Assembly (NCBI GenBank): GCA_035438225.1
Contig: DAORHY010000001.1
Location: 1 to 40,357 of the forward strand
DNA from: Bacteroidia bacterium
GTDB lineage: Bacteria; Bacteroidota; Bacteroidia; AKYH767-A; 2013-40CM-41-45
Direction of reading: 5' to 3'
Length of the DNA: 40,357 nt
The notes beneath the pieces were generated by a model. It searched no databases. It saw only the letters and a program-made list of their open reading frames with translations, and had not been told where the DNA came from. Positions 8,682-31,369 of this stretch are shown in pieces. The position numbers were made by a program, and so were the translations under genes. How positions within the stretch are numbered: the stretch's first letter is position 1; each line of letters begins with the position of its first letter.

Positions 8682-11372
8682 CTACTCTACCACAAACCCT
8701 TTTACAACACTCGTTTTCCGGTTGCTGATGCGCGCAAAATATTTTCCGGGTTTCAGGTCCAGATGTTGTTGATAGCTGTCGTGCCCGGAAAGGACGACAG
8801 CAGCGACCCGGCGTCCGGTGATGTCGATAACCTCCAGTTGAGAGGCTTTGTCAGATTCCTGCTTTGAAACAAAACGAATTGTAAAATCTCCTGTATTTAC
8901 TGTTGGATAAAGTTCCACTTCAGGAATCTGAACATCCTTCCCCTCACCACTGTAAAGGAGCATTCCCAATCCGGTTTCCCAGATTCCTCTTCCAAAAGTA
9001 CTCACATAAATTTTGTTCAACGCTACATTGATTTCGATGTCGGTTACAATCACATTCGGTAGCCCTGTACTGTACAAGCCCCAGCTGGAAGATGCACTGT
9101 CGAGAACATACACTCCGATGTCTGTACCTGCCAATAGAATATCCGTTCCCGGGACGTTCCGGATACAATTGACCGGGAGATTGGGAAGGTTAAACGATAT
9201 ATTCTGCCAGGTTTGCCCTCCATCCGGGGTCTTGAAGACTTTATTTCCCGCACTGAAACCCGCCATGCTGATGTATGCAATTGCCGCATTACCGTAATGA
9301 ATATCCACGCTGGTATAATAGAGAGAATCGGGAAGACCGGCAGTGATAGTATTCCAGTTTTGCCCACCGTCATTCGTCATGTAAACCGCTCCGGGTATTC
9401 CATATTCATAGCGGACACGTTTGCATACATATAAAAAATCCGGATCAGAATCCGCAACGGCCATTGCTGAAATTTCATGATCCGCAAAACCCGGAACCGG
9501 GAATGCGGAAATCACCGACCAGTTCTGACCATTGTCTGTACTCTTACTTACATTGGAATAACCAATGTAGAAGGTGCCGGGATTCGTGTAATCTGCAACA
9601 AGCGGTGTCGTCCATTCGGCCACTTCATTATTCACATTCGCATTGATTCCGTTGGCAGAAAATCCACCGTCAAAACTCTGATTAAAATATCCGTACTGGC
9701 TGGAACCGATAATCACATTGTCGTTCTGGGGATCGAGGTAGTTGTCCATACCATCCCCGCCGAAAATTGTGCTCCAGGCATTTCCATCGAAATGGAAGGA
9801 TGCATTGTCCTGTGCTCCTGCCATCAGCCTTCCAACCGTATTCCGTGAACTTGAAAGCCGGTAAAAAGATGTAACCTGCATTCCGCTGCTGAGATTTGTC
9901 CACTGCGTAGGCCAGGGAACACCATTGTTGGCATCGGTCCAGTTGTGAATAAACAGCTGCGCTGTCCGGTAGAGGCCGCCGTCATTGCAAACAAAAATAT
10001 TGCCGGTCAAGGGTTGCTGCTGCATGAAATGGATGTCACCGTGTAAAGTAGGACCGTAACTCAGCGTCCAGTGACTGACCGGATTAAATGTCTGCGCTCC
10101 GTCTGAAGAACCCCAGATATTTACACCTCCGGCATATACCCGGTCCTTGTCTGTCGCATCCACCATGAGCGCAAGGTCATAATTCCCCTGGCCGCCGGAA
10201 CCGGTACCATCGCCTCCTTCCAGTACATTCAAACCCGGATTGATGAATTGCCAGCTTTGACCTGCATCCGAAGACTTATAAATTCCGTCCATTCCGAAAT
10301 CAAGATTTACGGTTATCGCATAAATCCTGTTTGGATCCGAAGGAGCAATGGCAAGTTTGATGCGCTGAACCACACCGGTGGGAGGAATATTCGTGTTCAA
10401 CAAGGTCCAGGTATTTCCAAAATCCACCGACTTGTAAATACCGGCACTTCCGTCATTCGCATTGTAAACCCATCCGGTAGCGGCATACAAGATATCCGGA
10501 TTCACAGGGTCCTGAACAAGGTCCCAGAAAAGTGAATCCATTCGCTGGGTCCACGTTGCTCCGGCATCCGTGCTGGTATACATTCCGCTGGTGCCGCAAG
10601 CAACCAGGTGGCTGCTGTTGGAAGGCTGTACAAGAACTTTGCGTATCAACGAGGCATCTCCATTTGTCAGCTGGAAACTCAAGCCGCTTGGCTGCCAGGA
10701 CACACCACCGTCAGTTGTTTTATACACACCAAGTCCGTAATGCGTATTTCGTTTTCTTCCGTTCAGGTTCAGCCCAAATCCCAGGTATTCGAAATCACAA
10801 ACCGAGAGGTACATCACATCGGTGTTGTTCGGATCAATGGCAATATCGCTGATGCGCAGGATCGGCAGACTCTCGGTGATCGGAGTCCAGGATTGCCCGT
10901 TGTTGGTTGTTTTCCACACTCCTCCCTGTGCTACACCTATGAAATAAGTAGCGGGGTCGTTCGGATGAAAAGCGATGCAGTTAATTCTTCCGATCCCGTT
11001 TTCCATATACCCTGTCATGTTATTGGGCACCACATCCGGACCCGAAGGAGTCCAGCCGGCAGATAAAAACCGGGAGGTAGCCTGCAGCTGTTTTTCCCTT
11101 GCTGCTTTGGTGACAGCATCAATATAAATCGCCGGATCGCCGGGATTTCCCCGGGCATCTGTATGCAATTGCATATCCATTTCCCAGCGCTTGAAATATT
11201 TCCAGTTCTTTTCGGATTTCAAATCGACACGGGACTTCCATTCATCGAACTGACGCTGCATTTCCATGAATGACAATGGCCGGGATGCTTCTTTAGAAAA
11301 AAATTTTTGAGCAATCGCCTGCCCATGCAGCAATAGAATTGCCGGCACTAAGATAAATCTGGAGAATTTCAT
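8682..11372 (-). CDS. BNR/Asp-box (sortilin/VPS10-type) beta-propeller protein with T9SS C-terminal sorting domain
   Basis: The internal ATG at 11372 gives the signal peptide MKFSRFILVPAILLLHGQAIAQ. There are at least 8 Asp-box repeats (TTNNGQSW, TTDGGVSW, STDAGATW, SVDFGNTW, SSDAGQSW, STDNGQNW, TNDGGQNW, TPDGGQTW). The C-terminus LYPTVNTGDFTIRF...GKYFARI is a T9SS CTD. Confidence 0.7.
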   Translation of the reverse strand: MKFSRFILVPAILLLHGQAIAQKFFSKEASRPLSFMEMQRQFDEWKSRVDLKSEKNWKYFKRWEMDMQLHTDARGNPGDPAIYIDAVTKAAREKQLQATSRFLSAGWTPSGPDVVPNNMTGYMENGIGRINCIAFHPNDPATYFIGVAQGGVWKTTNNGQSWTPITESLPILRISDIAIDPNNTDVMYLSVCDFEYLGFGLNLNGRKRNTHYGLGVYKTTDGGVSWQPSGLSFQLTNGDASLIRKVLVQPSNSSHLVACGTSGMYTSTDAGATWTQRMDSLFWDLVQDPVNPDILYAATGWVYNANDGSAGIYKSVDFGNTWTLLNTNIPPTGVVQRIKLAIAPSDPNRIYAITVNLDFGMDGIYKSSDAGQSWQFINPGLNVLEGGDGTGSGGQGNYDLALMVDATDKDRVYAGGVNIWGSSDGAQTFNPVSHWTLSYGPTLHGDIHFMQQQPLTGNIFVCNDGGLYRTAQLFIHNWTDANNGVPWPTQWTNLSSGMQVTSFYRLSSSRNTVGRLMAGAQDNASFHFDGNAWSTIFGGDGMDNYLDPQNDNVIIGSSQYGYFNQSFDGGFSANGINANVNNEVAEWTTPLVADYTNPGTFYIGYSNVSKSTDNGQNWSVISAFPVPGFADHEISAMAVADSDPDFLYVCKRVRYEYGIPGAVYMTNDGGQNWNTITAGLPDSLYYTSVDIHYGNAAIAYISMAGFSAGNKVFKTPDGGQTWQNISFNLPNLPVNCIRNVPGTDILLAGTDIGVYVLDSASSSWGLYSTGLPNVIVTDIEINVALNKIYVSTFGRGIWETGLGMLLYSGEGKDVQIPEVELYPTVNTGDFTIRFVSKQESDKASQLEVIDITGRRVAAVVLSGHDSYQQHLDLKPGKYFARISNRKTSVVKGFVVE

Positions 11373-11646
11373 TGAATCCGGGGGCGCAAGATTATAACAC
11401 CTGCTTTTCACAGAAGAAAGCAGTGGCTGGCCGCTAACAGAAACGGCATTACAAAGATACTGAATAACCCTTATTTTGAAACACCCATTACGGGAGGGAC
11501 TCTTGTCCTTTTCTGAATAAAAAAGCCATCCGGACCTCCGGAATCAGTCTCCAATCCAATTTCCGCATTTTAGCGTTCAGGTTAATTAAAACTTAAATGT
11601 TCCGGAAAAGACGGAGAATTTGAACAGATGAAATAAATTCGTTCGG

Positions 11647-12864
11647 ATGAAACTTCGAAAAATGCCATCGCTACTCCTGAGCGGGGTTCTGTTCATGACA
11701 GCTCCGTCGATAGTGAATGCTCAGCAAACCCCAACAAATAACTGCCAGTGGAAATTCAAAACCTCCACTCCATTCTTTGCTTCTCCCCTCGTCGAAAACA
11801 ACAGGATTTATATCGGAGGACTGGACAGTGTCTTTTATTGTCTGAACCTGACAAACGGCGAAATCGTCTGGACAATTAAAACAGGAGGCCCCATTCGTAG
11901 CACAGCAAAATCGTCAGGAGAATTTATCTGTTTTTTTAGTGGCGATGGCAGCATGTATTCGCTTTCGAAAAATAACGGGGCAGTGAACTGGAAATTCGCC
12001 TCCGTCGATAAAATGGCTGACCCTTTCGATTATTACCAGAGCAGTCCGTTGATACATGGCGACACCCTGTACTTTGGATCCGGGGATGGCAATGTCTATT
12101 CCATAAATGTTCACAGCGGTAAACTGAACTGGAAATTTGCAACGGGAAATGTGGTTCATTCAACACCCGCTCATTTCAACTCTAAAATCTATGTGAATTC
12201 CTTTGATGGAAACACCTACGCATTGAATGCCGCGGACGGCCAACTGATATGGAAATTCAAAAGCATCGGCCATCGCTATTTTCCGAATGGTGAAATGCAA
12301 TTTTCACCGGTTGTTGCAAACGGATTGGTATTCACAAGTGGCAGAGACTACAACCTGTATGCACTGGACGCGGAAAAAGGGTATGCACACTGGAACCGTG
12401 TGTTCCCGCGGGGCTGGGCGCCGGTGATCACGCCATCGCCTGCAAACGACTCCGTGGTGTATATCGGCACATCCGACGATTACCTTGTCCTTTGCCTGAA
12501 CAGTATAAACGGTCGTGAACTCTGGAAAGCAAATGTGAAGTTCAATGTTTTTGGCGCCTGTTCATTCCGCGGCGATACAGGATACGCTTCCACACTCATG
12601 GGAAAATGTTTCTCCTTCAATCGAAAAACCGGTGAACTTCTCGAACAGTTTACATCCGATTCATACCGAGAACACCGTCTCGAATATTTTAAACCGGACG
12701 ATACCTTCCGGGATGATATTTTTTCCATCCTTCATTCAAACGAAGATTTGATTGAAGCAGAATACAAAGTGGGTGGTTTCTATTCCACACCGGTAATTAC
12801 CGGGGAGTACTTACTGCTGAGCAGTACAGACGGGACGTTGTATTGTTATAGCCTGCGGAAGTAA
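11647..12864 (+). CDS. PQQ-like (BamB-like) beta-propeller repeat protein, secreted
   Basis: The signal peptide is MKLRKMPSLLLSGVLFMTAPSIVNAQ. The repeated unit is G-x-x-x-W-K/T-F...SP....IY.GS.DG..Y.LN (GEIVWTIKTG, GAVNWKFAS, GKLNWKFATG, GQLIWKFKS, GRELWKANV). Confidence 0.75.
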   Translation: MKLRKMPSLLLSGVLFMTAPSIVNAQQTPTNNCQWKFKTSTPFFASPLVENNRIYIGGLDSVFYCLNLTNGEIVWTIKTGGPIRSTAKSSGEFICFFSGDGSMYSLSKNNGAVNWKFASVDKMADPFDYYQSSPLIHGDTLYFGSGDGNVYSINVHSGKLNWKFATGNVVHSTPAHFNSKIYVNSFDGNTYALNAADGQLIWKFKSIGHRYFPNGEMQFSPVVANGLVFTSGRDYNLYALDAEKGYAHWNRVFPRGWAPVITPSPANDSVVYIGTSDDYLVLCLNSINGRELWKANVKFNVFGACSFRGDTGYASTLMGKCFSFNRKTGELLEQFTSDSYREHRLEYFKPDDTFRDDIFSILHSNEDLIEAEYKVGGFYSTPVITGEYLLLSSTDGTLYCYSLRK

Positions 12865-12989
12865 AAAAGACGCATTATTTCCTATGCCATCAATGCATAT
12901 AGAAACTGGTTTTCAATTATATTTATTCAAAATATCTTATACCTTTATCTGCTCATAGTCTATTTAGATCCTTTTTAAAAAATATCCAT

Positions 12990-13064
12990 AAAAAAAAGCG
13001 ACTTGCGCCGCTTTAGATGTTTTCACAACGGAATAATCCTTATTGTGATTTGCTTCAAAATGTA
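12990..13064 (-). ncRNA. tracrRNA: tracrRNA of the type II-C system (about 75 nt)
   Basis: The minus strand reads ACAUUUUGAAGCAAAUCACAA, an anti-repeat complementary to nt 2-23 of the minus-strand repeat with one bulged U. It continues UAAGGAUUAUUCCGUUGUGA, which is nexus-like (compare SpCas9 AAGGCUAGUCCGUU). It ends in a GCGGC-GCAA-GUCGC hairpin plus U8 (12990-13011). Confidence 0.8.
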
Positions 13065-13067
13065 AAA

Positions 13068-13075
13068 CAAAAATA
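13068..13075 (-). promoter_or_regulatory. -7 promoter box (TATTTTTG) of the tracrRNA
   Basis: The minus strand reads TATTTTTG, matching TAnnTTTG, 4 nt upstream of the first anti-repeat base. A TTG lies 19 nt further upstream (GTTG-N19-TATTTTTG). Confidence 0.45.
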
Positions 13076-13114
13076 TCCATTTATTCAATACAAACAACAT
13101 TACCCCAAAAAAAT

Positions 13115-16100
13115 ATGAAAAAAATATTAGGACTCGATCTCGGTTCCACTTCAATTGGATGGGCGCTGATTAATGAACCAGAAACCGAAAAAGAAGTTTT
13201 TCAAATTGTAGGAATGGGTGTGCGTATAATTCCTTTAAGCAAGGATGAAAACGATGAATTTACAAAAGGAAACGCTATCTCAAAAAATGCCAGCCGAACA
13301 TTCAAGCGGGGTGCAAGAAGAGGAATGCAGCGATATAAATTAAGAAAGGAAGCACTTGTTAAGATTCTTCAGTCTTTACAAATGATGCCTGATGCCGATC
13401 ATTTCAATCTTTCTGCTTTGAACCTCTACAGTTTACGTGATCGCGGCCTTCATGACCAACTATCGCTCAAGGAAATTGGAAGAATTCTTTTCCACTTAAA
13501 TCAAAAACGCGGCTACAAGAGCAACAGAAAAGCAAATAATGATGAAGTTGAAGGAAAGGCCGAGAAAGATTCTCCGGAACCAGAAATCGATGATAATGCT
13601 AAGAGTAAAGTGTCTAAAAAACCGGGTTATCTCGACCAAATCAACAACAGAGAAAACCTGATTGAAAAAGAGAACTTGACAATTGGTCAATACTTTTATT
13701 CTGAACTCAAAAAAGATCCATATTTCCGTATTAAGGAGAACATTTTTATGCGGAAAAGTTATGAGAATGAATTTGATAAGATTTGGATAAAGCAGCAGGA
13801 ATTTTATCCTTCCATACTTACAGATGAAATTAAAGATAAAATAAAAAATGAAATAATTTACTATCAACGACCCCTAAAATCTCAAAAGGGTCTTGTTTCC
13901 TACTGTGAATTTGAAAGAAAAATCTATTTTGACAAAACAAGTACTCCGATAAAAGAAATTAAAGGAGGACCGAAAGTTACCCCAAAAAGTTCTCCACTTT
14001 TTCAGGTTGCTAAAATCTGGCAGGAATTGAACAACATTGAAATTACAAGTTTCAAAGCAATTAAAAATTCCAATCAAACACCCGAATCCGGTTTTAATGA
14101 AGAAGGAAAACGTTCCCTAACATTGGACGAAAAAAAGCACATATTCGAAAAGCTAAATTTTGGCGATAAAATCACACCGAAAGAAATTCTTACCCTTCTT
14201 GGTTACAAATCAGGATACAATGAATACAAGATCAATTTGAGGAATGAGAAATTCATGGAAGGGAATCGTACCCTTGCAGCCATCAAAAAGGTTTTTGACA
14301 AACATGATGAAAATTATAATGAATTCCTCCATTTTGATCTTCAAATTGAACAATCCAATAGAGTTGATCCGGAAACCGGTGAATTATTTCCGGCCGTTAA
14401 TTGTAACTTTGAAAAGGAACCGCTCTATAAATTGTGGCATATTCTCTATTCAATTGACGATAACTCCGATGTTATCAAAACCCTGACTCAAAAGTGGAAC
14501 ATGAGTTTAAAGGTTGCCACAGATCTTGCAAAATTGGATTTTCAAAAATCAGGATATGGAAATATGAGTGCCAAAGCGCTCAGGAACATTCTGCCTCACC
14601 TTATGAATGGCTTCCAATACCCGAAGGCATGTGAAATGGCTGGATACAATCATAGCAACAGTAGAACCAAAATTGAAAACCAAATCAGGCCACTCCTTGA
14701 AAAGATAAAACTGTATGAAAAAAATAGTCTACGGCAACCAGTTGTTGAAAAAGTGATTAACCAGGTAATTAACCTTATAAATGACCTGATCGATGAAAAA
14801 ACCGGACTAATCTCCGGTGAGGAGAGGAATGCAAAAGATAAGTTTGAAATACGGGTTGAATTGGCAAGGGATTTAAGACAAAGTGCTGAAGAAAGAAATA
14901 AAGCCTTCAAATCAATTACTGATGCGGACAAAAAACACAAAGCCATTGTGGAGGAACTAATTCCAATAATCAGTTCCGTGAGTAAAAGGGACATAGAAAA
15001 GTATAAACTCTGGAAAGAATTTGAAGGTATCTCACCCTATGAACCTTCAAAAGTTATTGGCTTAAGAGAACTTTTTAATAAAAACGATGGAGTCATTTAT
15101 GACATCGAACATATTATACCAAAATCCAGGCTTTTCGATGATTCCTTTTCAAATAAAACAATTTGCCCACGGCATTTGAATTCCGGTTCGAAAGGTAAAA
15201 ATCAAAATACCGCTTTCGATTTTATGAAGCTGCAAGGCGATGATATACTGAATAATTATGTAGAAGTGGTAAAGAAACATCTGTATAAAAAAGATGGAAT
15301 TTCTAAAAGTAAATTCAATAAATTAATGATGCAGGGCGACAAAATCCCAGAAGACTTCATTAATCGTCAAATGCAGGAAACTCGTTTCATTTCCAAAGAA
15401 GTCAGAAGTTTATTGGAGCAGGTTTCCAGAAATGTATATGCTACTACCGGTTCAGTAACTGCAAAACTGCGGGATCTATGGGGTTGGAATGACATCCTCA
15501 TGAATCTCCAAATTGAAAAGTATCGTGCAGCCGGCCAGGTAGAGTTAAAAGAATTTACCAGAGATGGACAAATTCATCAAGTTGAAAGAATAAAAGATTG
15601 GTCAAAACGAGAGGACCATAGACATCATGCAATTGATGCATTGACAGTTGCATGTACAAAACAAGCTCATATTCAAAAAATGAATACATTAAACTCACAG
15701 CACACCCGTGACGAAATGTATAATGCTGTTGGAAACAATGGGTATGAACGTAAGTTGAATATTCTTGAAAAGTACCTGGTCTCTCAACGTCCATTTTCTA
15801 CTGACCAGGTATCAAAAGAAGCAGCCAAAATTCTGATCTCTTATAAAGCGGGGAAAAGATTGTTTTCTAAATCAAAGAACAAAATCAGAGTAAAAAACGG
15901 GAACAAGATTCAAATTACTTTAACGCCAAGGGGATTTCTTCACAAAGAAACTGTTTACGGTGAAATTAAACAATTCGAGAAAGCAAAATTAAATCCCCGC
16001 TTCACACGATTTGACGACATCGCGGACCCAAACCAGGGTTCTCTTGTAAAACAACATCTGAACAATTTTAATGGTGATCCCAAAAAAGCCTTTGGTAGCA

Positions 16101-16987
16101 AAGGATTGGCTCAATTTGAGTCGCAATATCATTTTACAGATGTAACTGTTTTCAGCAATGAATCTGTTGTGAAGTACAATTTGAATAAAGACTTCAAGGA
16201 AAAAGACATTGAATCCATCGTCGACAAAGGCATTCAAAAAAAGGTTCGGGAACATCTCTCAATGCACGGAAACAATCCCAAAGTCGCCTTTAGTGCTGAA
16301 CATCCCGTGTGGTTTAACAAGGAGAAAAAGATTCAGATTAAGTCTGTCCGCTGTAAAACCGGAAACGATAATTTACAAAATCTTCACCGGGATGCTAATG
16401 GACGAAAGATTGATTTTGTTTCAACAAGTAACAATCACCACATAGCAATATACAAAGATGCATCGGGCAAACTTCAGGAAAATGCCGTAACCTTCTGGGA
16501 TGCTTTTGAACGCAAGAAAAATGGCCTACCTGCTATCATCAAAAATCCAAAAGAAACCTGGGATACTGTTCTAACAAACGGCTTAGACAATCAGGTTTTA
16601 CTTTCCAATCTTCCAAAAGAAGACTGGACATTCATTACTTCCCTAGAACAAAATGACATGTTTGTGTTTGGAATGACAATGAATGAAATTCAAAATGCAA
16701 TTGAAAAGCAAGAATATGAGCCGATTAGCGAGCATTTGTACCGAGTTCAAAAACTATCAGAGCTATACTATGTTTTTAGATTCCACATTGAAACAAAAGT
16801 TGATGACAAATTTGATGGAAGTAAAAACGAAAAAGTGTCTATGGAACTTGGAAAAATGAAACGCATCACAAGTCTTGGCACAATGAATGGAATAAAAGTG
16901 AAAATAAACAAATTGGGTAAATTAACTCTGGAAGATAATCAACAAGGAATAGTAAATAAAATACTGGTGCAGGAAAGTACGTCTTGA
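13115..16987 (+). CDS. cas9: Cas9, type II-C (1290 aa)
   Basis: RuvC-I is MKKILGLDLGSTSIGWALI and the Arg-rich bridge helix is RTFKRGARRGMQRYKLRK. RuvC-II is IRVELARDL. The HNH domain is YDIEHIIPKSRLFDDSFSNKTICPRHLNSGSKGKNQNTAFDF and RuvC-III is HRHHAIDAL. cas1-cas2 and the array follow directly. Confidence 0.95.
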   Translation: MKKILGLDLGSTSIGWALINEPETEKEVFQIVGMGVRIIPLSKDENDEFTKGNAISKNASRTFKRGARRGMQRYKLRKEALVKILQSLQMMPDADHFNLSALNLYSLRDRGLHDQLSLKEIGRILFHLNQKRGYKSNRKANNDEVEGKAEKDSPEPEIDDNAKSKVSKKPGYLDQINNRENLIEKENLTIGQYFYSELKKDPYFRIKENIFMRKSYENEFDKIWIKQQEFYPSILTDEIKDKIKNEIIYYQRPLKSQKGLVSYCEFERKIYFDKTSTPIKEIKGGPKVTPKSSPLFQVAKIWQELNNIEITSFKAIKNSNQTPESGFNEEGKRSLTLDEKKHIFEKLNFGDKITPKEILTLLGYKSGYNEYKINLRNEKFMEGNRTLAAIKKVFDKHDENYNEFLHFDLQIEQSNRVDPETGELFPAVNCNFEKEPLYKLWHILYSIDDNSDVIKTLTQKWNMSLKVATDLAKLDFQKSGYGNMSAKALRNILPHLMNGFQYPKACEMAGYNHSNSRTKIENQIRPLLEKIKLYEKNSLRQPVVEKVINQVINLINDLIDEKTGLISGEERNAKDKFEIRVELARDLRQSAEERNKAFKSITDADKKHKAIVEELIPIISSVSKRDIEKYKLWKEFEGISPYEPSKVIGLRELFNKNDGVIYDIEHIIPKSRLFDDSFSNKTICPRHLNSGSKGKNQNTAFDFMKLQGDDILNNYVEVVKKHLYKKDGISKSKFNKLMMQGDKIPEDFINRQMQETRFISKEVRSLLEQVSRNVYATTGSVTAKLRDLWGWNDILMNLQIEKYRAAGQVELKEFTRDGQIHQVERIKDWSKREDHRHHAIDALTVACTKQAHIQKMNTLNSQHTRDEMYNAVGNNGYERKLNILEKYLVSQRPFSTDQVSKEAAKILISYKAGKRLFSKSKNKIRVKNGNKIQITLTPRGFLHKETVYGEIKQFEKAKLNPRFTRFDDIADPNQGSLVKQHLNNFNGDPKKAFGSKGLAQFESQYHFTDVTVFSNESVVKYNLNKDFKEKDIESIVDKGIQKKVREHLSMHGNNPKVAFSAEHPVWFNKEKKIQIKSVRCKTGNDNLQNLHRDANGRKIDFVSTSNNHHIAIYKDASGKLQENAVTFWDAFERKKNGLPAIIKNPKETWDTVLTNGLDNQVLLSNLPKEDWTFITSLEQNDMFVFGMTMNEIQNAIEKQEYEPISEHLYRVQKLSELYYVFRFHIETKVDDKFDGSKNEKVSMELGKMKRITSLGTMNGIKVKINKLGKLTLEDNQQGIVNKILVQESTS

Positions 16988-17008
16988 TAAATTCAAAAAT
17001 TATAAAGG

Positions 17009-18282
<1,274 letters not shown>

Positions 18283-18450
18283 ACAAACGTACTCACCTCT
18301 CACTCACTTTGATCCTGATTCCGATCAATTTCAACCAATCAGGATTAAAAATTTCGGTTATTTCTTCTTTACCAAGACAAGTTTCCCATGTTTTTTAAAT
18401 CGGTAATTCCCTCTGGAATACCTGATTTTACTGGGCTTTCAACAACCTAT

Positions 18451-19342
18451 GTTGTTCAGTCTTATGTCAAAGATACATTTTGAAAGCAAATCACAACTTC
18501 TAACCGCCCACTCGTTGCTTGAATCCGTTGTTCAGTCTTATGTCAAAGATACATTTTGAAAGCAAATCACAACCAATCAAATATTGAATATCCGGATTCT
18601 TTTGTTGTTCAGTCTTATGTCAAAGATACATTTTGAAAGCAAATCACAACCCGAAACATCGTTTCCCAATACAAGATCAAGTTGTTCAGTCTTATGTCAA
18701 AGATACATTTTGAAAGCAAATCACAACCTGCGAAAATGTCAAACCATCTTGTCGGTGTTGTTCAGTCTTATGTCAAAGATACATTTTGAAAGCAAATCAC
18801 AACAAGGTGAGTAGCTCATCTGCCATGATGAAAGTTGTTCAGTCTTATGTCAAAGATACATTTTGAAAGCAAATCACAACCCATGGATCTGAATTGTTTT
18901 TTAAAAGTCGGTTGTTCAGTCTTATGTCAAAGATACATTTTGAAAGCAAATCACAACCAGTGAAGGTTTCCGGATTACTCTCTGAGAGTTGTTCAGTCTT
19001 ATGTCAAAGATACATTTTGAAAGCAAATCACAACTCCGATTTGCCTCAAAGGCCTCCCGTCTGCGTTGTTCAGTCTTATGTCAAAGATACATTTTGAAAG
19101 CAAATCACAACTGCCGGTGGCTCATCATCAGATTGATGATGGTTGTTCAGTCTTATGTCAAAGATACATTTTGAAAGCAAATCACAACCTCGAATAAATT
19201 GAACATTTTGCTTTGAAAGTTGTTCAGTCTTATGTCAAAGATACATTTTGAAAGCAAATCACAACTTCAATTGTTGCGAATGTTTTCATATCGTTGTTGT
19301 TCAGTCTTATGTCAAAGATACATTTTGAAAGCAAATCACAAC
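18451..19342 (-). CRISPR. CRISPR array: 12 identical 47-nt repeats and 11 unique spacers (29-30 nt), functionally read from the minus strand
   Basis: The plus-strand repeat is GTTGTTCAGTCTTATGTCAAAGATACATTTTGAAAGCAAATCACAAC. Repeats start at 18451, 18527, 18604, 18681, 18757, 18834, 18911, 18988, 19065, 19142, 19219 and 19296. The minus-strand form GTTGTGATTTGCTTTCAAAATG... is the canonical Bacteroidetes II-C orientation and is the strand complementary to the tracrRNA anti-repeat. Confidence 0.97.
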
Positions 19343-19581
19343 AACCGTTTCAAAGCTTTTCAATCGCGGTAAGTTAATGTTCTCAACTTTATTCGGAGAA
19401 CTGAACCAGCCAGCCGGAAGGCAGGTTTCCACCGTGTACAAATGTATCTGTGAAGCACGGCCCCCAGCTATCGCTAACCTCTTGTGAATGGATGCTCTGC
19501 TGTTCGTTCGAAGACGGATAACCCAAATGTAGCATGCACTTCATCCATAACACTGAGTGTACGTTGCAGAATTTAGTTGCT

Positions 19582-20130
19582 TCATTTTTTCGAAGAATAG
19601 CCGGCTCTATAACCCAATAAATAACTTATTGGTGCAAGTATCAGATAAGTCAAAAGTTGAATCGGCCAGGGAGGATTTACCACACGAATTTCGTCCATAT
19701 GTTTTAACCCCATTAATGGTAACTGCAAAAACGGAGGCATGCCTTTATCACTGAGTTTGGCGTCTTTAGCGAGTGCAAAAAAGGACTCAAAAAATTCGTC
19801 AATATGAAGCGCGGGAGTAAATTGCTGAACAGAGTGCGCTTCTGTATCGTCCTCATTCCAAAAACAATGGGGAGCACCGGCAGGGATAACAATCTTTTCG
19901 CCTGGCCCAACTATTTGTTCCTTGCCATTCACCACGAAATGAAGTCTCCCCGAAATTACTTTAGCAGAACTTTCTTGTTTGGGATGAACATGCATTGGCT
20001 CTCTCATGTCCGATTTAGGATTGAAAGATTCAATTTCCAATAGTTGCCCATTTGTTTCCTTGCCTGTTTGAAGGAAAATCATTTGTTGCCCTGTCCGTAC
20101 GTTTGTGATTTTGTCTCCTTGCTTTGCCAT
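19582..20130 (-). CDS. Cupin-domain protein with C-terminal hydrophobic tail
   Basis: The 182-aa product has a cupin core (EPMHVHPKQESSAKVISGRLHFVVNGKE...GEKIVIPAGAPHCFWN). The C-terminus PWPIQLLTYLILAPISYLLGY is hydrophobic. Confidence 0.7.
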   Translation of the reverse strand: MAKQGDKITNVRTGQQMIFLQTGKETNGQLLEIESFNPKSDMREPMHVHPKQESSAKVISGRLHFVVNGKEQIVGPGEKIVIPAGAPHCFWNEDDTEAHSVQQFTPALHIDEFFESFFALAKDAKLSDKGMPPFLQLPLMGLKHMDEIRVVNPPWPIQLLTYLILAPISYLLGYRAGYSSKK

Positions 20131-20313: not shown

Positions 20314-20760
20314 TCATTCGTTCAGAGAACGAATGCCTTGATCTTTAAGTTTTGTTAGTGCATCTTTCATAGCTTTCACCTGCTCGTCCGGGTGTCCTTG
20401 CCAAACGGAAACTTCTCCTACAACTTTAAACGGTTGCATCGAACGATAAGATTTTGTCGGATTACCCGGAAATTTTTTGTCTGTCAGGTCGGGGTCGTCT
20501 TCAATTTGTCCGGTTGGTTCTACTAAGTAAATTCTTCCCCGTCCTTCACCAATGGCGAGTTCTGCTCCCCAAATTGCAGCGTCCAATGTTGCGGTCAGGA
20601 AAATATATTTTGCATTTCTTCTTTGTCCAAAATTGGAGTGGTTTCCAGCTTCAATTAAGTCGCCAACTTTAAGGTCTGCTTTTGTCCCGTGAAAATACGT
20701 TTGAGCAAAAGGCGTCGGGCCTTTTCCGAATGATTTTTGTTCGTCTTTGCCCTGTTCCAT
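20314..20760 (-). CDS. arr: NAD+--rifampin ADP-ribosyltransferase (Arr family)
   Basis: The 148-aa product is collinear with Arr-2 as I recall it. Shared blocks are YFHGTKADLKVGDLI, YIFLTATLDAAIWGAELA, GRGRIYLVEPTGQIEDDPDLTDKKFPGNPTKSYRS and VWQGHP. Confidence 0.88.
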   Translation of the reverse strand: MEQGKDEQKSFGKGPTPFAQTYFHGTKADLKVGDLIEAGNHSNFGQRRNAKYIFLTATLDAAIWGAELAIGEGRGRIYLVEPTGQIEDDPDLTDKKFPGNPTKSYRSMQPFKVVGEVSVWQGHPDEQVKAMKDALTKLKDQGIRSLNE

Positions 20761-21740: not shown

Positions 21741-21748
21741 CAAAGATA
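21741..21748 (-). promoter_or_regulatory. -7 promoter box (TATCTTTG) of the rnk-like gene
   Basis: The minus strand reads TTGTATCTTTGAATG, ending 27 nt upstream of the ATG at 21714. Confidence 0.45.
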
Positions 21749-23007: not shown

Positions 23008-23796
23008 TTAATTGCAAGGTTGCTCTTCCAGTTTGCCATAAATGTTTCCGTCAAAATCTTTCTGGTCATTGCCATATTCAAGTCTGATTATTTTGCCACA
23101 ATTTACTTGTATAACGAATGCAAAATCTTCCATTGACGCAGACATGTTACCTTTCCCATTCGTTATATGGTCAAGATAACCTGGTAGAGAATTTTTTAAA
23201 GGTTCAATATTATCTCCAACTTTGAATTCAGGAATTGTTTGTCTGATAATTTTAGTTCTTACTTCATCAGTCGTAAAACGAAACATCGCAGCAAGAGCAA
23301 TAGTCGGCAGCAACCATAAATATATAAAGAGAAAGATTGCTGGAGATAGAAAAAAAATGATTTTTATAGAAGGTCGTTTGAATAATAAGTCAACCAATTT
23401 GTCCGACTTTATCAGCAGAGAGTAGGTAAGACCGAAAAACAATCCTATTAAAGTTGCCAAAGGCAGGAACATAATGACCAAGTCAAAACTGCGGAAAATT
23501 CCACCGACTAAGATTGAATATGCCAATGCACCGTAAATTGCTGTGATTAAAAGAAAAATTTTGGGTTTGAATATCTCTCTTGAATGGTCAAGTCTGTTAA
23601 GAGGATAAATAATAAAAGTAGCCCAAGCAAGTGTAATAAAAAGTCCAGACCAATACATTACTACACCGCTGTCGTCTGCATTCCCGTCTTTCCAAACAAG
23701 ATAAATGGAATAAAGTATACTTGTGAGTGCCCACGCAGTTATCATTGAGAAAAAACTCAATGTTTGCTTTACACTATTTAGTTTCGGAGTTGTCAC
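23008..23796 (-). CDS. Hypothetical polytopic membrane protein with C-terminal soluble domain
   Basis: The 262-aa product has about 6 hydrophobic helices (FSMITAWALTSILYSIYLV, LFITLAWATFIIYPL, IFLLITAIYGALAYSILVGGIF, VIMFLPLATLIGLFFGLTYSLLI, IIFFLSPAIFLFIYLWLLPTIALAA). I recognise no family. Confidence 0.6.
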   Translation of the reverse strand: MTTPKLNSVKQTLSFFSMITAWALTSILYSIYLVWKDGNADDSGVVMYWSGLFITLAWATFIIYPLNRLDHSREIFKPKIFLLITAIYGALAYSILVGGIFRSFDLVIMFLPLATLIGLFFGLTYSLLIKSDKLVDLLFKRPSIKIIFFLSPAIFLFIYLWLLPTIALAAMFRFTTDEVRTKIIRQTIPEFKVGDNIEPLKNSLPGYLDHITNGKGNMSASMEDFAFVIQVNCGKIIRLEYGNDQKDFDGNIYGKLEEQPCN

Positions 23797-23804
23797 TGTT
23801 TGAG

Positions 23805-23987
23805 TTAGCGATCCAGTTTGTTCGGAGCGTTAAAATTGCCGATAATACCTTCAGTTACACAATATGTTGGTTCAGTATAATTCAAAGATACATTTTGAAT
23901 TAGATCACAACCCGTAGGAGCAGTTGCGCCGCAAACTCTTGGCTGTTCGGATAAATCCCATTGCCTATTCGTCCCATTCCCAACCAT
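23805..23987 (-). CDS. Possible 60-aa small protein, start overlapping the upstream stop (TAATG); may be spurious
   Basis: The ATG at 23987-23985 shares a base with the TAA of the 126-aa gene. The ORF contains the orphan CRISPR-repeat-like sequence, so coding status is doubtful. Confidence 0.2.
   Translation of the reverse strand: MVGNGTNRQWDLSEQPRVCGATAPTGCDLIQNVSLNYTEPTYCVTEGIIGNFNAPNKLDR
23866..23911 (-). repeat. Orphan, degenerate copy of the CRISPR repeat
   Basis: The plus strand reads GTTGGTTCAGTATAATTCAAAGATACATTTTGAATTAGATCACAAC. It shares an uninterrupted 18-nt core (TCAAAGATACATTTTGAA) with the array repeat. It also shares the GTTG(G)TTCAGT start and the identical ATCACAAC end, for roughly 80% identity. 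The orientation matches the array, which ends 4.5 kb away at 19342. Confidence 0.65.
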
Positions 23988-27868: not shown

Positions 27869-28327
27869 TTATTTTTCACAAATTTCTTTTAACGTATCGA
27901 GTGCCTTTGGGTAAGTCTGGTTCATATAATCCAGAAAATCTTCGGCGGTGTCTAATTCAACAGTAATGGTTGTAGTTCCGTTGCTTTCTTCGAAGGTGTA
28001 GTTCTCAAATCCATTGGCCCATTTTTCTACCTCCGGTCCATCTGTAATTTCCTTGCCGGCTTGAAAAAGACCATAATGCTGAACCGAAACAAATCGGTTG
28101 GGAACGTTATCAACTATCCTGGATACCATTCCACCCCTTTCTCCCTTCTCGTCTACTCCAATAAACAGCATTTTTGTTCCCTTGTCCCAACTTCCTTCAT
28201 ACGTCGATGTCGGGTTAAACAAAGCAGTCCATTGCTCATATGTCGATTTATTGCTGATGCCAAGCATAGAATCATAAACCCTGCTTACAGGTGCTTTGAT
28301 GCTTACTGTGAATTGTAACTGTTTCAT
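27869..28327 (-). CDS. SRPBCC-superfamily protein (AHSA1-like)
   Basis: The 152-aa product begins MKQLQFTVSIKAPVSRVYDSMLG. It continues W...FENYTFEESNGTTTITVELD, typical of Aha1-domain START-fold proteins. Confidence 0.65.
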   Translation of the reverse strand: MKQLQFTVSIKAPVSRVYDSMLGISNKSTYEQWTALFNPTSTYEGSWDKGTKMLFIGVDEKGERGGMVSRIVDNVPNRFVSVQHYGLFQAGKEITDGPEVEKWANGFENYTFEESNGTTTITVELDTAEDFLDYMNQTYPKALDTLKEICEK

Positions 28328-28444
28328 AGTATGAATAGTTGTATCCGTTTATCTTTCGTTTGTTATTTTCCGTCATTCTTCGCTGTCGTATAATATAGCC
28401 GATGACACAAAACTAAACTTAACTCCATTCCTCCCCTCTCCTCC

Positions 28445-28452
28445 CAAAGATA
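28445..28452 (-). promoter_or_regulatory. -7 promoter box (TATCTTTG) upstream of the 27869..28327 gene
   Basis: The minus strand reads GGTTTGGCGGTAAAATGTATCTTTGGGAGG. It is part of a module of about 55 nt duplicated at 31146-31212. Confidence 0.5.
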
Positions 28453-28550
28453 CATTTTACCGCCAAACCACCACACGGAACGATCCTTCACGCTGCGAAG
28501 AATTTCATTGATCCTGTGCAGCTTTAACATTCTGTACTCCGGGCCCGGTG

Positions 28551-31086: not shown

Positions 31087-31173
31087 ATATTCTTAGTTTG
31101 GTTGGTTAAGGAAGGTTGTCATAAATGAGTATTAACACCGAACGATACCCAACTCATTCAGCCTCCCTCCCCT

Positions 31174-31181
31174 CAAAGATA
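31174..31181 (-). promoter_or_regulatory. -7 promoter box (TATCTTTG) upstream of the DUF2130 gene
   Basis: The minus strand reads GGTTTGGTGGCAAAATGTATCTTTGAGGGG, ending 88 nt upstream of the ATG at 31086. Confidence 0.5.
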
Positions 31182-31369
31182 CATTTTGCCACCAAACCAC
31201 ACCACAGGACCGGACCCTGGATGGCCGGGTATGTGGTGTTTTGTGTCGCTCGACTCCCAAAAGCAGCGGGTTTGCCAGAACATTGAAATAAAGAATCATT
31301 TGGTAAAACTGAAACCCGATCCAAATCAAATGCTACGCACCCCGAAGAGAAGTAAATTGTCGGGAAGCC

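What the first reader, a model, noticed from the sequence alone, without database searches (positions are those of the whole stretch)
18451..19342. Every CRISPR repeat carries a complete Bacteroidetes -7 promoter box: candidate self-promoting crRNA units
On the strand the tracrRNA says is transcribed, each repeat reads GTTGTGATTTGCTTTCAAAATGTATCTTTGACATAAGACTGAACAAC.

- **Promoter box:** TATCTTTG (repeat nt 23-30) is an exact TAnnTTTG, and a TTTG lies 11 nt upstream.
- **Match to real promoters:** the 16-mer CAAAATGTATCTTTGA is identical to the putative promoter of the DUF2130 gene (31174-31181 region). AAAATGTATCTTTG also occurs in the promoter of the SRPBCC gene (28445-28452), and TATCTTTG in front of the rnk-like gene (21741-21748).
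- **Predicted product:** initiation about 5-7 nt downstream would fall near repeat nt 35-37. The primary crRNAs would then have an 11-13 nt repeat-derived 5' tag, a 30-nt spacer and the next repeat.
- **Precedent:** repeat-embedded sigma70 promoters are established for Neisseria and Campylobacter type II-C arrays. Here the motif is the unrelated Bacteroidetes sigmaA consensus, which would imply convergent evolution of the same strategy.

One caveat is that the TTTG-to-box spacing of 11 nt is shorter than the roughly 19 nt usually cited.
Basis: partly seen in the sequence, partly recalled or inferred. Interest (0 to 1): 0.7.

Follow-up and report, generated by a model that had tools for sequence, protein, structure and literature searches.

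The report
Promoter inside each Bacteroidota CRISPR repeat
Each 47-base repeat of this Bacteroidota Cas9 (type II-C) CRISPR array contains what looks like a complete promoter of the Bacteroidota kind, so every spacer is probably transcribed on its own, as in Neisseria and Campylobacter but through a different promoter type; RNA data have not yet shown this.

Summary
There are 12 identical 47-nt repeats at 18451-19342. The tracrRNA fixes the crRNA strand as the minus strand, and on it each repeat has TATCTTTG at nt 23-30.

One motif in one repeat sequence is weak evidence: about 5% of shuffles contain it. Comparison carries the case:
- **Enrichment:** of 48 distinct repeats from Cas9-related loci across Bacteroidota, 27 have an exact TAnnTTTG on the crRNA strand. 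Shuffles give 2.5 and the other strand has 1.
- **Calibration:** 35 of 43 tracrRNA genes in these loci have the same box. Their layout is TTG, 19-20 nt, box, 3 nt, then TA.
- **Same layout in repeats:** the TTG is nt 2-4 of the opening GTTG, 18-20 nt upstream, and T/A lie at +4/+5 after the box.
- **Predicted start:** A35, giving a 13-nt tag.

Published metatranscriptomes confirm the transcribed strand for the B. fragilis 47-nt array.

Caveats: there is no 5'-end data. 21 of 48 repeats lack an exact box, including the Mucilaginibacter-like clade (Cas9 60-62% identical), which has GTTCTTTA/G.

Repeat-encoded promoters were already proposed for Flavobacterium, from a TTG motif only. This is a new variant of a known strategy.

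The parts
18451..19342 (-). CRISPR array: 12 identical 47-nt repeats and 11 spacers of 29-30 nt. The crRNA strand is the minus strand, so transcription runs from 19342 towards cas2.
   Evidence: define the array. The strand follows from tracrRNA complementarity.
19313..19320 (-). -7 box TATCTTTG (repeat nt 23-30), shown here for the cas2-distal repeat. The same box occurs in all 12 repeats; the other 11 sites are listed under the observation check.
   Evidence: Family enrichment is 27 of 48 against 2.5 expected.
19339..19341 (-). Candidate -33 element: TTG, nt 2-4 of the opening GTTG, 18 nt upstream of the box. Shown for the distal repeat; it is present in every repeat.
   Evidence: TTG lies 18-20 nt upstream of the box in 25 of 28 repeat boxes. 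The tracrRNA promoters of the same loci peak at 19-20 nt.
19308..19308 (-). Predicted transcription start, A35 of the repeat: 5 nt after the box's final G and preceded by T34. Shown for the distal repeat. It would give a 13-nt 5' tag, AAGACUGAACAAC, ahead of each spacer.
   Evidence: Inference. T is at +4 and A at +5 in 21 and 26 of 28 repeat boxes, and in 22 and 27 of 34 tracrRNA promoters, where that A begins the anti-repeat.
12988..13063 (-). tracrRNA: anti-repeat 13064..13043 pairs with repeat nt 2-24. It is followed by the scaffold TAAGGATTATTCCGTTGTGAAAACAT and the terminator 13014..12995 plus a T run.
   Evidence: duplex fold -40.6 kcal/mol, z = -6.3. The exact ends are predicted, not measured.
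13068..13075 (-). -7 box TATTTTTG of the tracrRNA promoter, 3 nt upstream of the anti-repeat.
   Evidence: 35 of 43 homologous tracrRNA genes have an exact box at this place.
13115..16987 (+). cas9 (1290 aa; HNH and RuvC_III domains).
   Evidence: Homologues are Bacteroidota Cas9.
17009..18282 (+). cas1 (17009-17941) and cas2 (17938-18282). No csn2 or cas4 is present, so the locus is type II-C.
18283..18450 (.). cas2-proximal flank, the likely acquisition leader. It is conserved in the closest relative, L081.
   Evidence: In R. anatipestifer (47-nt repeats) new spacers enter at the cas2-proximal end (PMC6008519).
23866..23911 (-). Orphan degenerate repeat GTTGTGATCTAATTCAAAATGTATCTTTGAATTATACTGAACCAAC. 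The 16-mer around the box is intact, while the tracrRNA-pairing part (nt 9-15) has decayed. It lies upstream of ORF 23008-23796 (-).
   Evidence: alignment score 50 against at most 26 in shuffled windows.

Best explanation
This is a type II-C CRISPR-Cas9 locus of a Bacteroidota bacterium. Its 47-nt repeat doubles as a complete housekeeping promoter of the Bacteroidota type (sigma-ABfr).

**Proposed layout on the crRNA (minus) strand.**
- nt 2-4, TTG: the -33 element.
- nt 5-22: the AT-rich promoter spacer, which also encodes the tracrRNA-pairing segment.
- nt 23-30, TATCTTTG: the -7 box.
- A35: the predicted start site.

**Proposed mechanism.** RNA polymerase initiates in every repeat. Each primary transcript carries a 13-nt repeat tag, then the 30-nt spacer, then the next repeat. 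The first ~24 nt of that next repeat pair with the tracrRNA, which is driven by its own -7 box, and the complex loads into Cas9. New spacers enter at the cas2 end, which is the 3' end of any long transcript, so internal promoters keep the newest spacers expressed.

**Shown here:** the motifs, the strand, their conservation, and the layout shared with the tracrRNA promoters.

**Inferred:** promoter activity, the exact start site, and whether processing needs RNase III.
For: **Box and strand.** Every repeat has an exact box on the strand fixed by the tracrRNA.

**Family survey.**
- 80 Cas9-related loci from Bacteroidota genomes gave 50 arrays.
- 27 of 48 distinct repeats have an exact TAnnTTTG on the crRNA strand. 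2000 shuffles gave a mean of 2.5 (sd 1.5, maximum 9), and the opposite strand has 1.
- The box mostly starts at nt 23-25. The 'nn' positions vary (TC, AC, CT, AA, AT), and in some lineages the box has moved to nt 29 or 32-33.
- The family consensus is GTTGTGATTTGCTTTCAAATTGTATCTTTGnnnTATTnnACACAAC.

**Independent calibration from tracrRNA genes.**
- 35 of 43 tracrRNA genes carry an exact box.
- Their TTG-to-box spacer is 19-20 nt, and positions +4/+5 after the box are T (22 of 34) and A (27 of 34).
- The repeats match: TTG lies 18-20 nt upstream in 25 of 28 boxes, with T in 21 of 28 and A in 26 of 28.
- Loci whose tracrRNA box is inexact mostly also have an inexact repeat box (7 of 8 against 13 of 35; Fisher p = 0.017, not corrected for phylogeny).

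**Close relative.** L085 (Cas9 64% identical) keeps repeat nt 1-31 identical to the window, while nt 32-47 are unrelated.

**Window promoters.** TATCTTTG also sits just upstream of co-oriented genes at 11452, 21741, 28445 and 31174.

**Orphan repeat.** It keeps the box 16-mer while its tracrRNA-pairing part has decayed.

**Literature.**
- The B. fragilis 47-nt array, which has TATCTTTG at nt 24, is transcribed opposite to the cas genes in 8 metatranscriptomes (PMC4911918; repeat sequence from PMC9367070).
- Both halves of an IS256-split 46-nt F. psychrophilum array are transcribed (PMC10309648).
- In R. anatipestifer, spacers enter at the cas2 end (PMC6008519).
Against: **No RNA data.** There is none for this organism, and no mapped primary 5' ends for any 46-48-nt array in the papers I could search.

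**Incomplete conservation.**
- 21 of 48 repeats lack an exact box.
- The clade with Cas9 60-62% identical (L002, L086-L088) has GTTCTTTA/G, losing the 'TA', although its own tracrRNA promoters are canonical.
- A TCTTTG-like core could therefore be kept for another reason.

**Confounders.**
- The repeats are homologous, so the counts are not independent events.
- The box abuts the tracrRNA-pairing segment and overlaps it by 2 nt.
- The GTTG start is general to type II repeats (my knowledge, not tested here), so the -33 match costs nothing.

**External promoter not excluded.** TACATTTG lies at 19446..19439 (-), 97 nt upstream of the array.

**Terminal repeats.** They were not informative: the box is kept in four and lost in two.
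Confidence: 0.72

Rival explanations
1. The TATCTTTG block is conserved for a reason other than transcription, for example as a recognition or ruler element for the Cas1-Cas2 integrase, or as part of the pre-crRNA bound before processing. The array is then transcribed as one long pre-crRNA from a single promoter beyond its cas2-distal end.
For: A TCTTTG-like core persists, as GTTCTTTG, GATCTTTG or GTTCTTTA, in repeats that have lost the 'TA', even though the tracrRNA promoters of those genomes are canonical. The box adjoins the duplex-forming segment. A TAnnTTTG site exists 97 nt upstream of the array at 19446..19439 (-).
Against: - The motif moves between nt 17 and nt 39 in different lineages, which does not suit a ruler.
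- The anti-repeat ends at about nt 24, so the TTTG part is outside the duplex.
- The match to tracrRNA promoters extends to the -33 spacing and the TA start.
- The candidate external site has a GC-rich upstream region, no TTG at 18-20 nt, and no TA at +4/+5.
- A split F. psychrophilum array is transcribed on both sides of the insertion (PMC10309648).
Confidence: 0.17
2. The box is a chance feature of an AT-rich repeat, inherited by descent across the family and without function. The matches to gene promoters in the window are coincidental or are themselves repeat-derived.
For: A shuffled repeat carries the motif about 5% of the time. The 12 copies are one sequence, and many Bacteroidales repeats are near-identical. 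One of the 16-mer matches is an orphan repeat rather than an independent promoter.
Against: - Strand asymmetry is 27 to 1, and enrichment is about 11-fold.
- Changes fall on the two free 'nn' positions.
- Repeat positions 3' of the box are nearly unconserved (0.1-0.4 bits), whereas the box columns score about 1-2 bits. That measure is biased, because the sequences were selected for having the box.
- L085 keeps nt 1-31 but not nt 32-47.
Confidence: 0.06
3. The repeat promoter is real but weak or conditional. Most crRNA comes from read-through of a long transcript, and the internal promoters mainly top up expression of the cas2-proximal (newest) spacers or respond to stress.
For: The variants found in the repeats (TAnnTTAG, TAnnTTCG, GTTCTTTG) look like weakened boxes. 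B. fragilis arrays also show some antisense reads and differences between individuals (PMC4911918).
Against: Nothing here measures promoter strength. The window's box is an exact consensus with a correctly spaced TTG and a TA start.
Confidence: 0.05

Closest known systems
Repeat-embedded promoters of the Neisseria meningitidis and Campylobacter jejuni type II-C arrays (Zhang 2013 and Dugar 2013, as cited in PMC8092290 and PMC5006608)
   Same: Both are type II-C loci (cas9-cas1-cas2 plus tracrRNA). The array is transcribed towards the cas2-proximal end, opposite to the cas genes. A promoter element sits in every repeat on the crRNA strand, so each spacer is its own transcription unit. The first ~16 nt of the repeats are visibly homologous (GTTGT..C.TTTC).
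   Different: - The element here is the Bacteroidota TAnnTTTG -7 box with a TTG -33, not a sigma-70 extended -10. The sigma-70 scan showed no enrichment.
- It lies in the middle of a 47-nt repeat (nt 23-30), so the predicted start is inside the repeat, leaving a 13-nt tag. In Neisseria the box ends the 36-nt repeat and initiation falls inside the spacer (my recollection of Zhang 2013; not re-read here).
- Activity and independence from RNase III are untested here.
Proposed repeat-encoded promoters of Flavobacterium II-C arrays (F. columnare, Hoikkala 2021, PMC8092290; F. psychrophilum Fp2Cas9, PMC10309648)
   Same: The phylum, the idea and the direction (towards the variable end) are the same. 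F. psychrophilum has 46-bp repeats of the same family (PMC5395568).
   Different: Those papers name only a 'TTG' about 33-35 bp upstream of each spacer. PMC10309648 invokes TAnnTTTG for cas9 but not for the repeat. Here a full -33/-7/start layout is identified and calibrated against tracrRNA promoters. The F. psychrophilum repeat itself has TATTTTAG, a one-mismatch box.
Riemerella anatipestifer CRISPR1 (47-bp repeats, type II-C; PMC5006608, PMC6008519)
   Same: The repeat length class and locus layout are the same. Spacer acquisition at the cas2-proximal end was shown experimentally.
   Different: [quoted passage not shown] It used a general neural-network promoter predictor. The present analysis suggests that conclusion should be revisited with the Bacteroidota consensus and the opposite strand.
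Bacteroides fragilis 638R type II-C array (BfragL47; PMC4911918, PMC9367070)
   Same: It is a 47-nt repeat of the same family. On the crRNA strand it reads GTTGTGATTTGCTTTCAAATTAGTATCTTTGAACC..., with TATCTTTG at nt 24-31. Stranded metatranscriptomes show transcription opposite to the cas genes.
   Different: No promoter or start site was assigned, and no anti-repeat was found in that work. Here a conserved tracrRNA with its own box is found in 43 related loci.

Membership tests
Type II-C CRISPR-Cas | cas9, cas1 and cas2 only, with no csn2 or cas4 | tested here: met
   Pfam finds Cas9 (HNH_4, RuvC_III), Cas1 and Cas2 at 13115-18282. The flanking ORFs are unrelated.
Type II-C CRISPR-Cas | tracrRNA with an anti-repeat complementary to the repeat, plus a terminator | tested here: met
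   The anti-repeat 13064..13043 (-) pairs with repeat nt 2-24. The terminator is at 13014..12995 (-). The scaffold is conserved in 43 loci.
Arrays with repeat-embedded promoters (Neisseria/Campylobacter kind) | A promoter element in every repeat, on the crRNA strand | tested here: met
   This is met at the sequence level only. An exact TAnnTTTG is present in all 12 repeats and is enriched across the family.
Arrays with repeat-embedded promoters (Neisseria/Campylobacter kind) | The element is a sigma-70 extended -10 box (TGnTAnAAT-like) | tested here: not met
   There is no consistent sigma-70-type site in the repeats. The region has 18 sites against 20.3 expected, and the two array hits depend on spacer sequence. 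The element is of the Bacteroidota type instead.
Arrays with repeat-embedded promoters (Neisseria/Campylobacter kind) | The array is transcribed opposite to the cas operon, towards the end where new spacers enter | tested here: met
   Direction follows from the tracrRNA. It was shown by RNA for the B. fragilis homologue (PMC4911918). The acquisition end was shown in R. anatipestifer (PMC6008519). None of this was measured in this organism.
Arrays with repeat-embedded promoters (Neisseria/Campylobacter kind) | Primary (5'-triphosphate) crRNA ends map to each unit, and crRNA production is independent of RNase III | not testable with these tools
   No RNA data were available. This needs dRNA-seq or 5' RACE and an rnc mutant.
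Bacteroidota sigma-ABfr promoter | -7 element TAnnTTTG | tested here: met
   TATCTTTG at repeat nt 23-30. The consensus is as given in PMC7366714.
Bacteroidota sigma-ABfr promoter | -33 element TTTG/TTG, separated from the box by an AT-rich spacer | tested here: met
   TTG at nt 2-4 lies 18 nt upstream of the box. The spacer, nt 5-22, is 72% A+T (my count from the sequence). The tracrRNA promoters of the family peak at 19-20 nt.
Bacteroidota sigma-ABfr promoter | Initiation a few nt downstream of the box | tested here: inconclusive
   T34 and A35 match the T/A at +4/+5 seen in tracrRNA promoters and in 21 and 26 of 28 repeat boxes. No start site has been measured.
Bacteroidota sigma-ABfr promoter | Promoter activity in vivo | not testable with these tools
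   This needs a reporter fusion or transcript mapping.

The most novel reading that the evidence does not exclude
**First part.** Across Bacteroidota, the 46-48-nt type II-C repeat is a self-contained sigma-ABfr promoter, so every spacer is an independent transcription unit. The opening GTTG serves as the -33 element, the tracrRNA-pairing segment serves as the promoter spacer, and these are followed by the -7 box and a TA start.

**Second part.** Because each repeat is a portable promoter, decayed or orphan repeats can be taken over to drive neighbouring host genes.
- The orphan repeat at 23911..23866 lies upstream of ORF 23008-23796.
- The repeat-like promoter cores at 31201..31173 and 28458..28445 may be further cases.

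The probability given is for the second part. I put the first part alone at about 0.6.
Probability: 0.15. Interest if true: 0.7.

Novelty: new variant of a known kind. Interest (0 to 1): 0.5.

Why it matters
- **Expression of these arrays.** It would explain how the long-repeat Cas9 arrays of Bacteroidota are expressed. These bacteria include common gut Bacteroides, and poultry and fish pathogens. It would also fix the crRNA strand, and therefore the PAM side.
- **Correcting the record.** A published statement says that R. anatipestifer repeats contain no promoters.
- **Evolution.** 'One promoter per spacer' would be a maintained property of type II-C systems that was rebuilt with a different promoter type when the system came to reside in a phylum with a different sigma factor.
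- **Practical use.** A single repeat-spacer-repeat unit should be self-expressing in Bacteroidota hosts, which would be useful for native-Cas9 genome editing. The same rule (box, then 3 nt, then TA) also predicts tracrRNA 5' ends.

Tried and rejected
- **Rfam, gathering threshold, whole window:** no hit.
- **Sigma-70 promoter scan of 12800-19800:** no enrichment (18 against 20.3 expected). The only hits in the array depend on spacer sequence. This probably explains why an earlier study found no repeat promoters.
rejected. tracrRNA promoters place TTG at 19-20 nt, and the opening GTTG of the repeat fits that spacing.
- **Terminal-repeat test:** I asked whether the cas2-distal, degenerate repeat keeps the box while losing the tracrRNA-pairing half. 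The result was inconclusive. The box is kept in L019, L043, L072 and L080 and lost in L034 and L045, and outer-half decay is expected anyway.
- **Closest relatives:** L081-L083 (Cas9 84% identical) have no array, only one degenerate repeat. The L084 contig ends at cas9.
- **The 25-mer shared by the 31173 and 28445 promoters:** absent from all 88 fetched loci.
- **Literature:** nine full-text searches found no paper that names TAnnTTTG inside a CRISPR repeat. Chen 2007 (PMC1828668) is not held. Subscription papers, including Zhang 2013 and Dugar 2013, could not be read.
Full report
**1. What is there**

Window 18451-19342 holds 12 identical 47-nt repeats separated by 29-30-nt spacers. Upstream on the + strand lie cas9 (13115-16987; HNH and RuvC_III domains), cas1 (17009-17941) and cas2 (17938-18282). 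There is no csn2 or cas4, so the locus is type II-C. A neighbouring gene carries a Por_Secre_tail sorting domain, and all Cas9 relatives come from Bacteroidota.

Between the preceding gene and cas9, the minus strand carries a tracrRNA gene:
- The anti-repeat at 13064..13043 pairs with repeat nt 2-24.
- It is followed by TAAGGATTATTCCGTTGTGAAAACAT.
- The terminator AAAGCGGCGCAAGTCGCTTT plus a T run lies at 13014..12995.
- A repeat-GAAA-tracrRNA fusion folds with repeat nt 1-23 in the duplex (-40.6 kcal/mol, z = -6.3).

On that strand each repeat reads GTTGTGATTTGCTTTCAAAATGTATCTTTGACATAAGACTGAACAAC, with TATCTTTG at nt 23-30.

**2. Is it more than chance?**

Inside the window the evidence is modest.
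- The 12 copies are one sequence, and a shuffled repeat carries TAnnTTTG on a given strand about 5% of the time.
- The 16-mer CAAAATGTATCTTTGA recurs exactly at 31173-31188 (-) and 23882-23897 (-), and as 14/16 at 28444-28459 (-). Only 0.09 hits are expected.
- The first and third sites lie upstream of co-oriented genes.
- TATCTTTG also sits 27 nt upstream of the GreA/Rnk-like gene and 41 nt upstream of ORF 8682-11411.

In this genome, then, the octamer behaves like a real -7 box.

**3.

I aligned 23 Cas9 relatives (A1) and used the alignment to fetch 80 loci from one-genome-per-species Bacteroidota contigs. A simple array finder recovered arrays in 50 of them, nearly all with 46-47-nt repeats. 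I oriented each repeat to the crRNA strand and obtained these results:
- 27 of 48 distinct repeats carry an exact TAnnTTTG. 2000 shuffles gave a mean of 2.5 (sd 1.5, maximum 9), and the opposite strand has 1 of 48.
- TAnnTTTG is the commonest gapped hexamer in the 3' part of the repeats.
- The box usually starts at nt 23-25. The two free positions vary (TATCTTTG, TAACTTTG, TACTTTTG, TAAATTTG, TATATTTG).
- In some lineages the box has moved, to nt 29 in L066 and to nt 32-33 in L035 and L070.
- A MAFFT alignment of 52 repeats, including the published B. fragilis and F. psychrophilum repeats, has the consensus GTTGTGATTTGCTTTCAAATTGTATCTTTGnnnTATTnnACACAAC.
- 3' of the box, conservation falls to 0.1-0.4 bits until the terminal ACAAC. 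That measure was taken on box-selected sequences and is biased.

L085 (Cas9 64% identical) is telling. Its repeat is identical to the window's through nt 31 and unrelated from nt 32 to nt 47.

**4. Calibration with tracrRNA promoters**

The tracrRNA genes of the same loci give an independent picture of a working promoter in these organisms.
- 43 tracrRNAs with the conserved scaffold were found, and 35 have an exact TAnnTTTG just upstream of the anti-repeat.
- In these promoters a TTG lies 19-20 nt upstream of the box (20 of 24 TTGs found within 14-24 nt).
- The box is followed by 3 variable nt and then T (22 of 34) and A (27 of 34). That A is the first or second base of the anti-repeat.

The repeats have the same layout.
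- The TTG of the opening GTTG lies 18-20 nt upstream of the box in 25 of 28 cases.
- T and A occupy +4/+5 in 21 and 26 of 28 cases, although the three bases in between vary (ACA, ATC, GCC, CAC, CGG, GTA).

The relevant -33 element is nt 2-4, and the 'promoter spacer' is the tracrRNA-pairing segment itself.

By analogy the start site in this window is A35.

Loci whose tracrRNA box deviates (TTCG, TTAG) mostly also have deviating repeat boxes (7 of 8 against 13 of 35; p = 0.017, not corrected for phylogeny). Examples are L075, with TACTTTCG and TATTTTCG, and L004, with GATATTCG and TAGCTTCG.

**5. What argues against**
- 21 of 48 repeats lack an exact box.
- Many are one-mismatch variants at the same place: TAnnTTAG, TAnnTTCG or TATCTTTA. 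F. psychrophilum has TATTTTAG.
- A group of Sphingobacteriales, Chitinophagales and Cytophagales repeats has GTTCTTTG, GATCTTTG or GTTCTTTA instead, at positions from nt 17 to nt 39.
- That group includes the four Mucilaginibacter-like loci with Cas9 60-62% identical to the window's (L002, L086-L088).
- These lose the 'TA' although their own tracrRNA promoters are canonical. Several are still followed by N3-TA.
- Either these are weak promoters, or the TCTTTG core has a second role.
- The sequences are related by descent, so the counts are not independent.
- No RNA 5'-end data exist for any member in the papers I could search.
- A possible external promoter (TACATTTG, 19446..19439) cannot be excluded. 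It lacks a TTG at 18-20 nt and a TA start.

**6. Literature**

Repeat-embedded sigma-70 promoters in Neisseria and Campylobacter are cited as established (PMC8092290, PMC5006608).

For Bacteroidota:
- Hoikkala 2021 proposed a 'TTG' in the 36-nt F. columnare repeat, with eight supporting reads (PMC8092290).
- The Fp2Cas9 paper repeated this for 46-bp F. psychrophilum repeats. It showed that both halves of an IS256-split array are transcribed, and it invoked TAnnTTTG only for cas9 (PMC10309648).
- The R. anatipestifer paper stated that no promoters were found in its 47-bp repeats (PMC5006608).
- Stranded metatranscriptomes show the B. fragilis 47-nt array transcribed opposite to the cas genes, with 71-98% of reads on that strand (PMC4911918). 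That strand carries TATCTTTG at nt 24-31 (repeat sequence from PMC9367070).
- New spacers enter at the cas2-proximal end in R. anatipestifer (PMC6008519).

None of nine searches found a paper that names the -7 box in a CRISPR repeat.

**7. Verdict**

It is not a new principle. It is the known type II-C 'promoter in every repeat' strategy, carried out with the Bacteroidota promoter type and placed mid-repeat.

The additions made here are:
- the full -33/-7/start layout;
- its calibration against tracrRNA promoters;
- its distribution, and its exceptions, across the phylum.

Interest is moderate. A specialist would find it plausible rather than surprising, but it is directly testable and corrects the published record for one pathogen.

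Noticed in passing
window 23866-23911 (-): An orphan, degenerate CRISPR repeat lies 4.5 kb beyond the cas2-distal end of the array, in the same orientation. It sits in the intergenic region upstream of ORF 23008-23796, a Pfam-less protein. The 16-mer around the -7 box is intact, while the tracrRNA-pairing part (nt 9-15) has decayed. It may be the old terminal repeat of a longer or interrupted array, and possibly now serves as that gene's promoter.
   Followed up: partly
window 31120-31260 (-) and 28390-28530 (-): Two gene-upstream regions (the DUF2130 gene and ORF 27869-28327) share a ~75-nt element: GTGGTTTGGyGGyAAAATGTATCTTTG, then a G-rich stretch (GGGAGG...), then GAATGAGTT. Its promoter core resembles repeat nt 3-31 (score 38 against a null of at most 26). 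It is absent from the 88 fetched loci and has no Rfam hit. It could be a shared regulatory region, a leader RNA, or a repeat-derived promoter.
   Followed up: partly
L081:5441-5487 (also L082, L083): In the closest relative (Cas9 84% identical) the leader is conserved, but the array has collapsed to a single repeat with a degenerate cas2-distal end (…GCAAATCAAAAAT). The CAAAGATA box is still present. The locus has cas9-cas1-cas2 but no spacers.
   Followed up: partly
43 loci among L002-L079 and the window: The tracrRNA of this Cas9 family is strongly conserved: the anti-repeat, then TAAGGATTATTCCGTTGTGAAAACAT, then a terminator. Its -7 box lies 3-4 nt upstream of the anti-repeat. Earlier work reported finding no anti-repeat for B. 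fragilis (PMC4911918, citing Chylinski 2013).
   Followed up: yes
Repeats of L003, L014, L037, L048, L050, L055, L074, L002, L086-L088: A GTTCTTTG / GATCTTTG / GTTCTTTA motif occupies different positions (nt 17-39) in repeats of Sphingobacteriales, Chitinophagales and Cytophagales, in place of an exact TAnnTTTG. It may be a weak -7 variant or a second function of the TCTTTG core.
   Followed up: partly
L087:7001-11812 and L088:10860-11875: In L087 the array follows cas9 directly, with no cas1 or cas2 (cas9 ends at 10858; the array spans 10933-11812). In L088 cas1 is truncated to a 184-aa product and is followed by a 112-aa ORF with no Pfam hit, so it is probably a pseudogene. Both loci are interference-only.
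   Followed up: no
window 20314-20760 (-): A rifampin ADP-ribosyltransferase (Arr) gene lies about 1 kb beyond the array (Pfam Arr-ms, E = 2e-48), between a cupin gene and a GreA/Rnk-like gene. The whole 19.5-23.8 kb block lies between the array and the orphan repeat.
   Followed up: no
window 18255-18275 (+): A terminator-like hairpin with a T run overlaps the end of cas2. The leader also contains an inverted repeat, ATCCTGATT…AATCAGGAT (18312-18345). It recalls the palindrome reported in the R. anatipestifer leader (PMC5006608).
   Followed up: no
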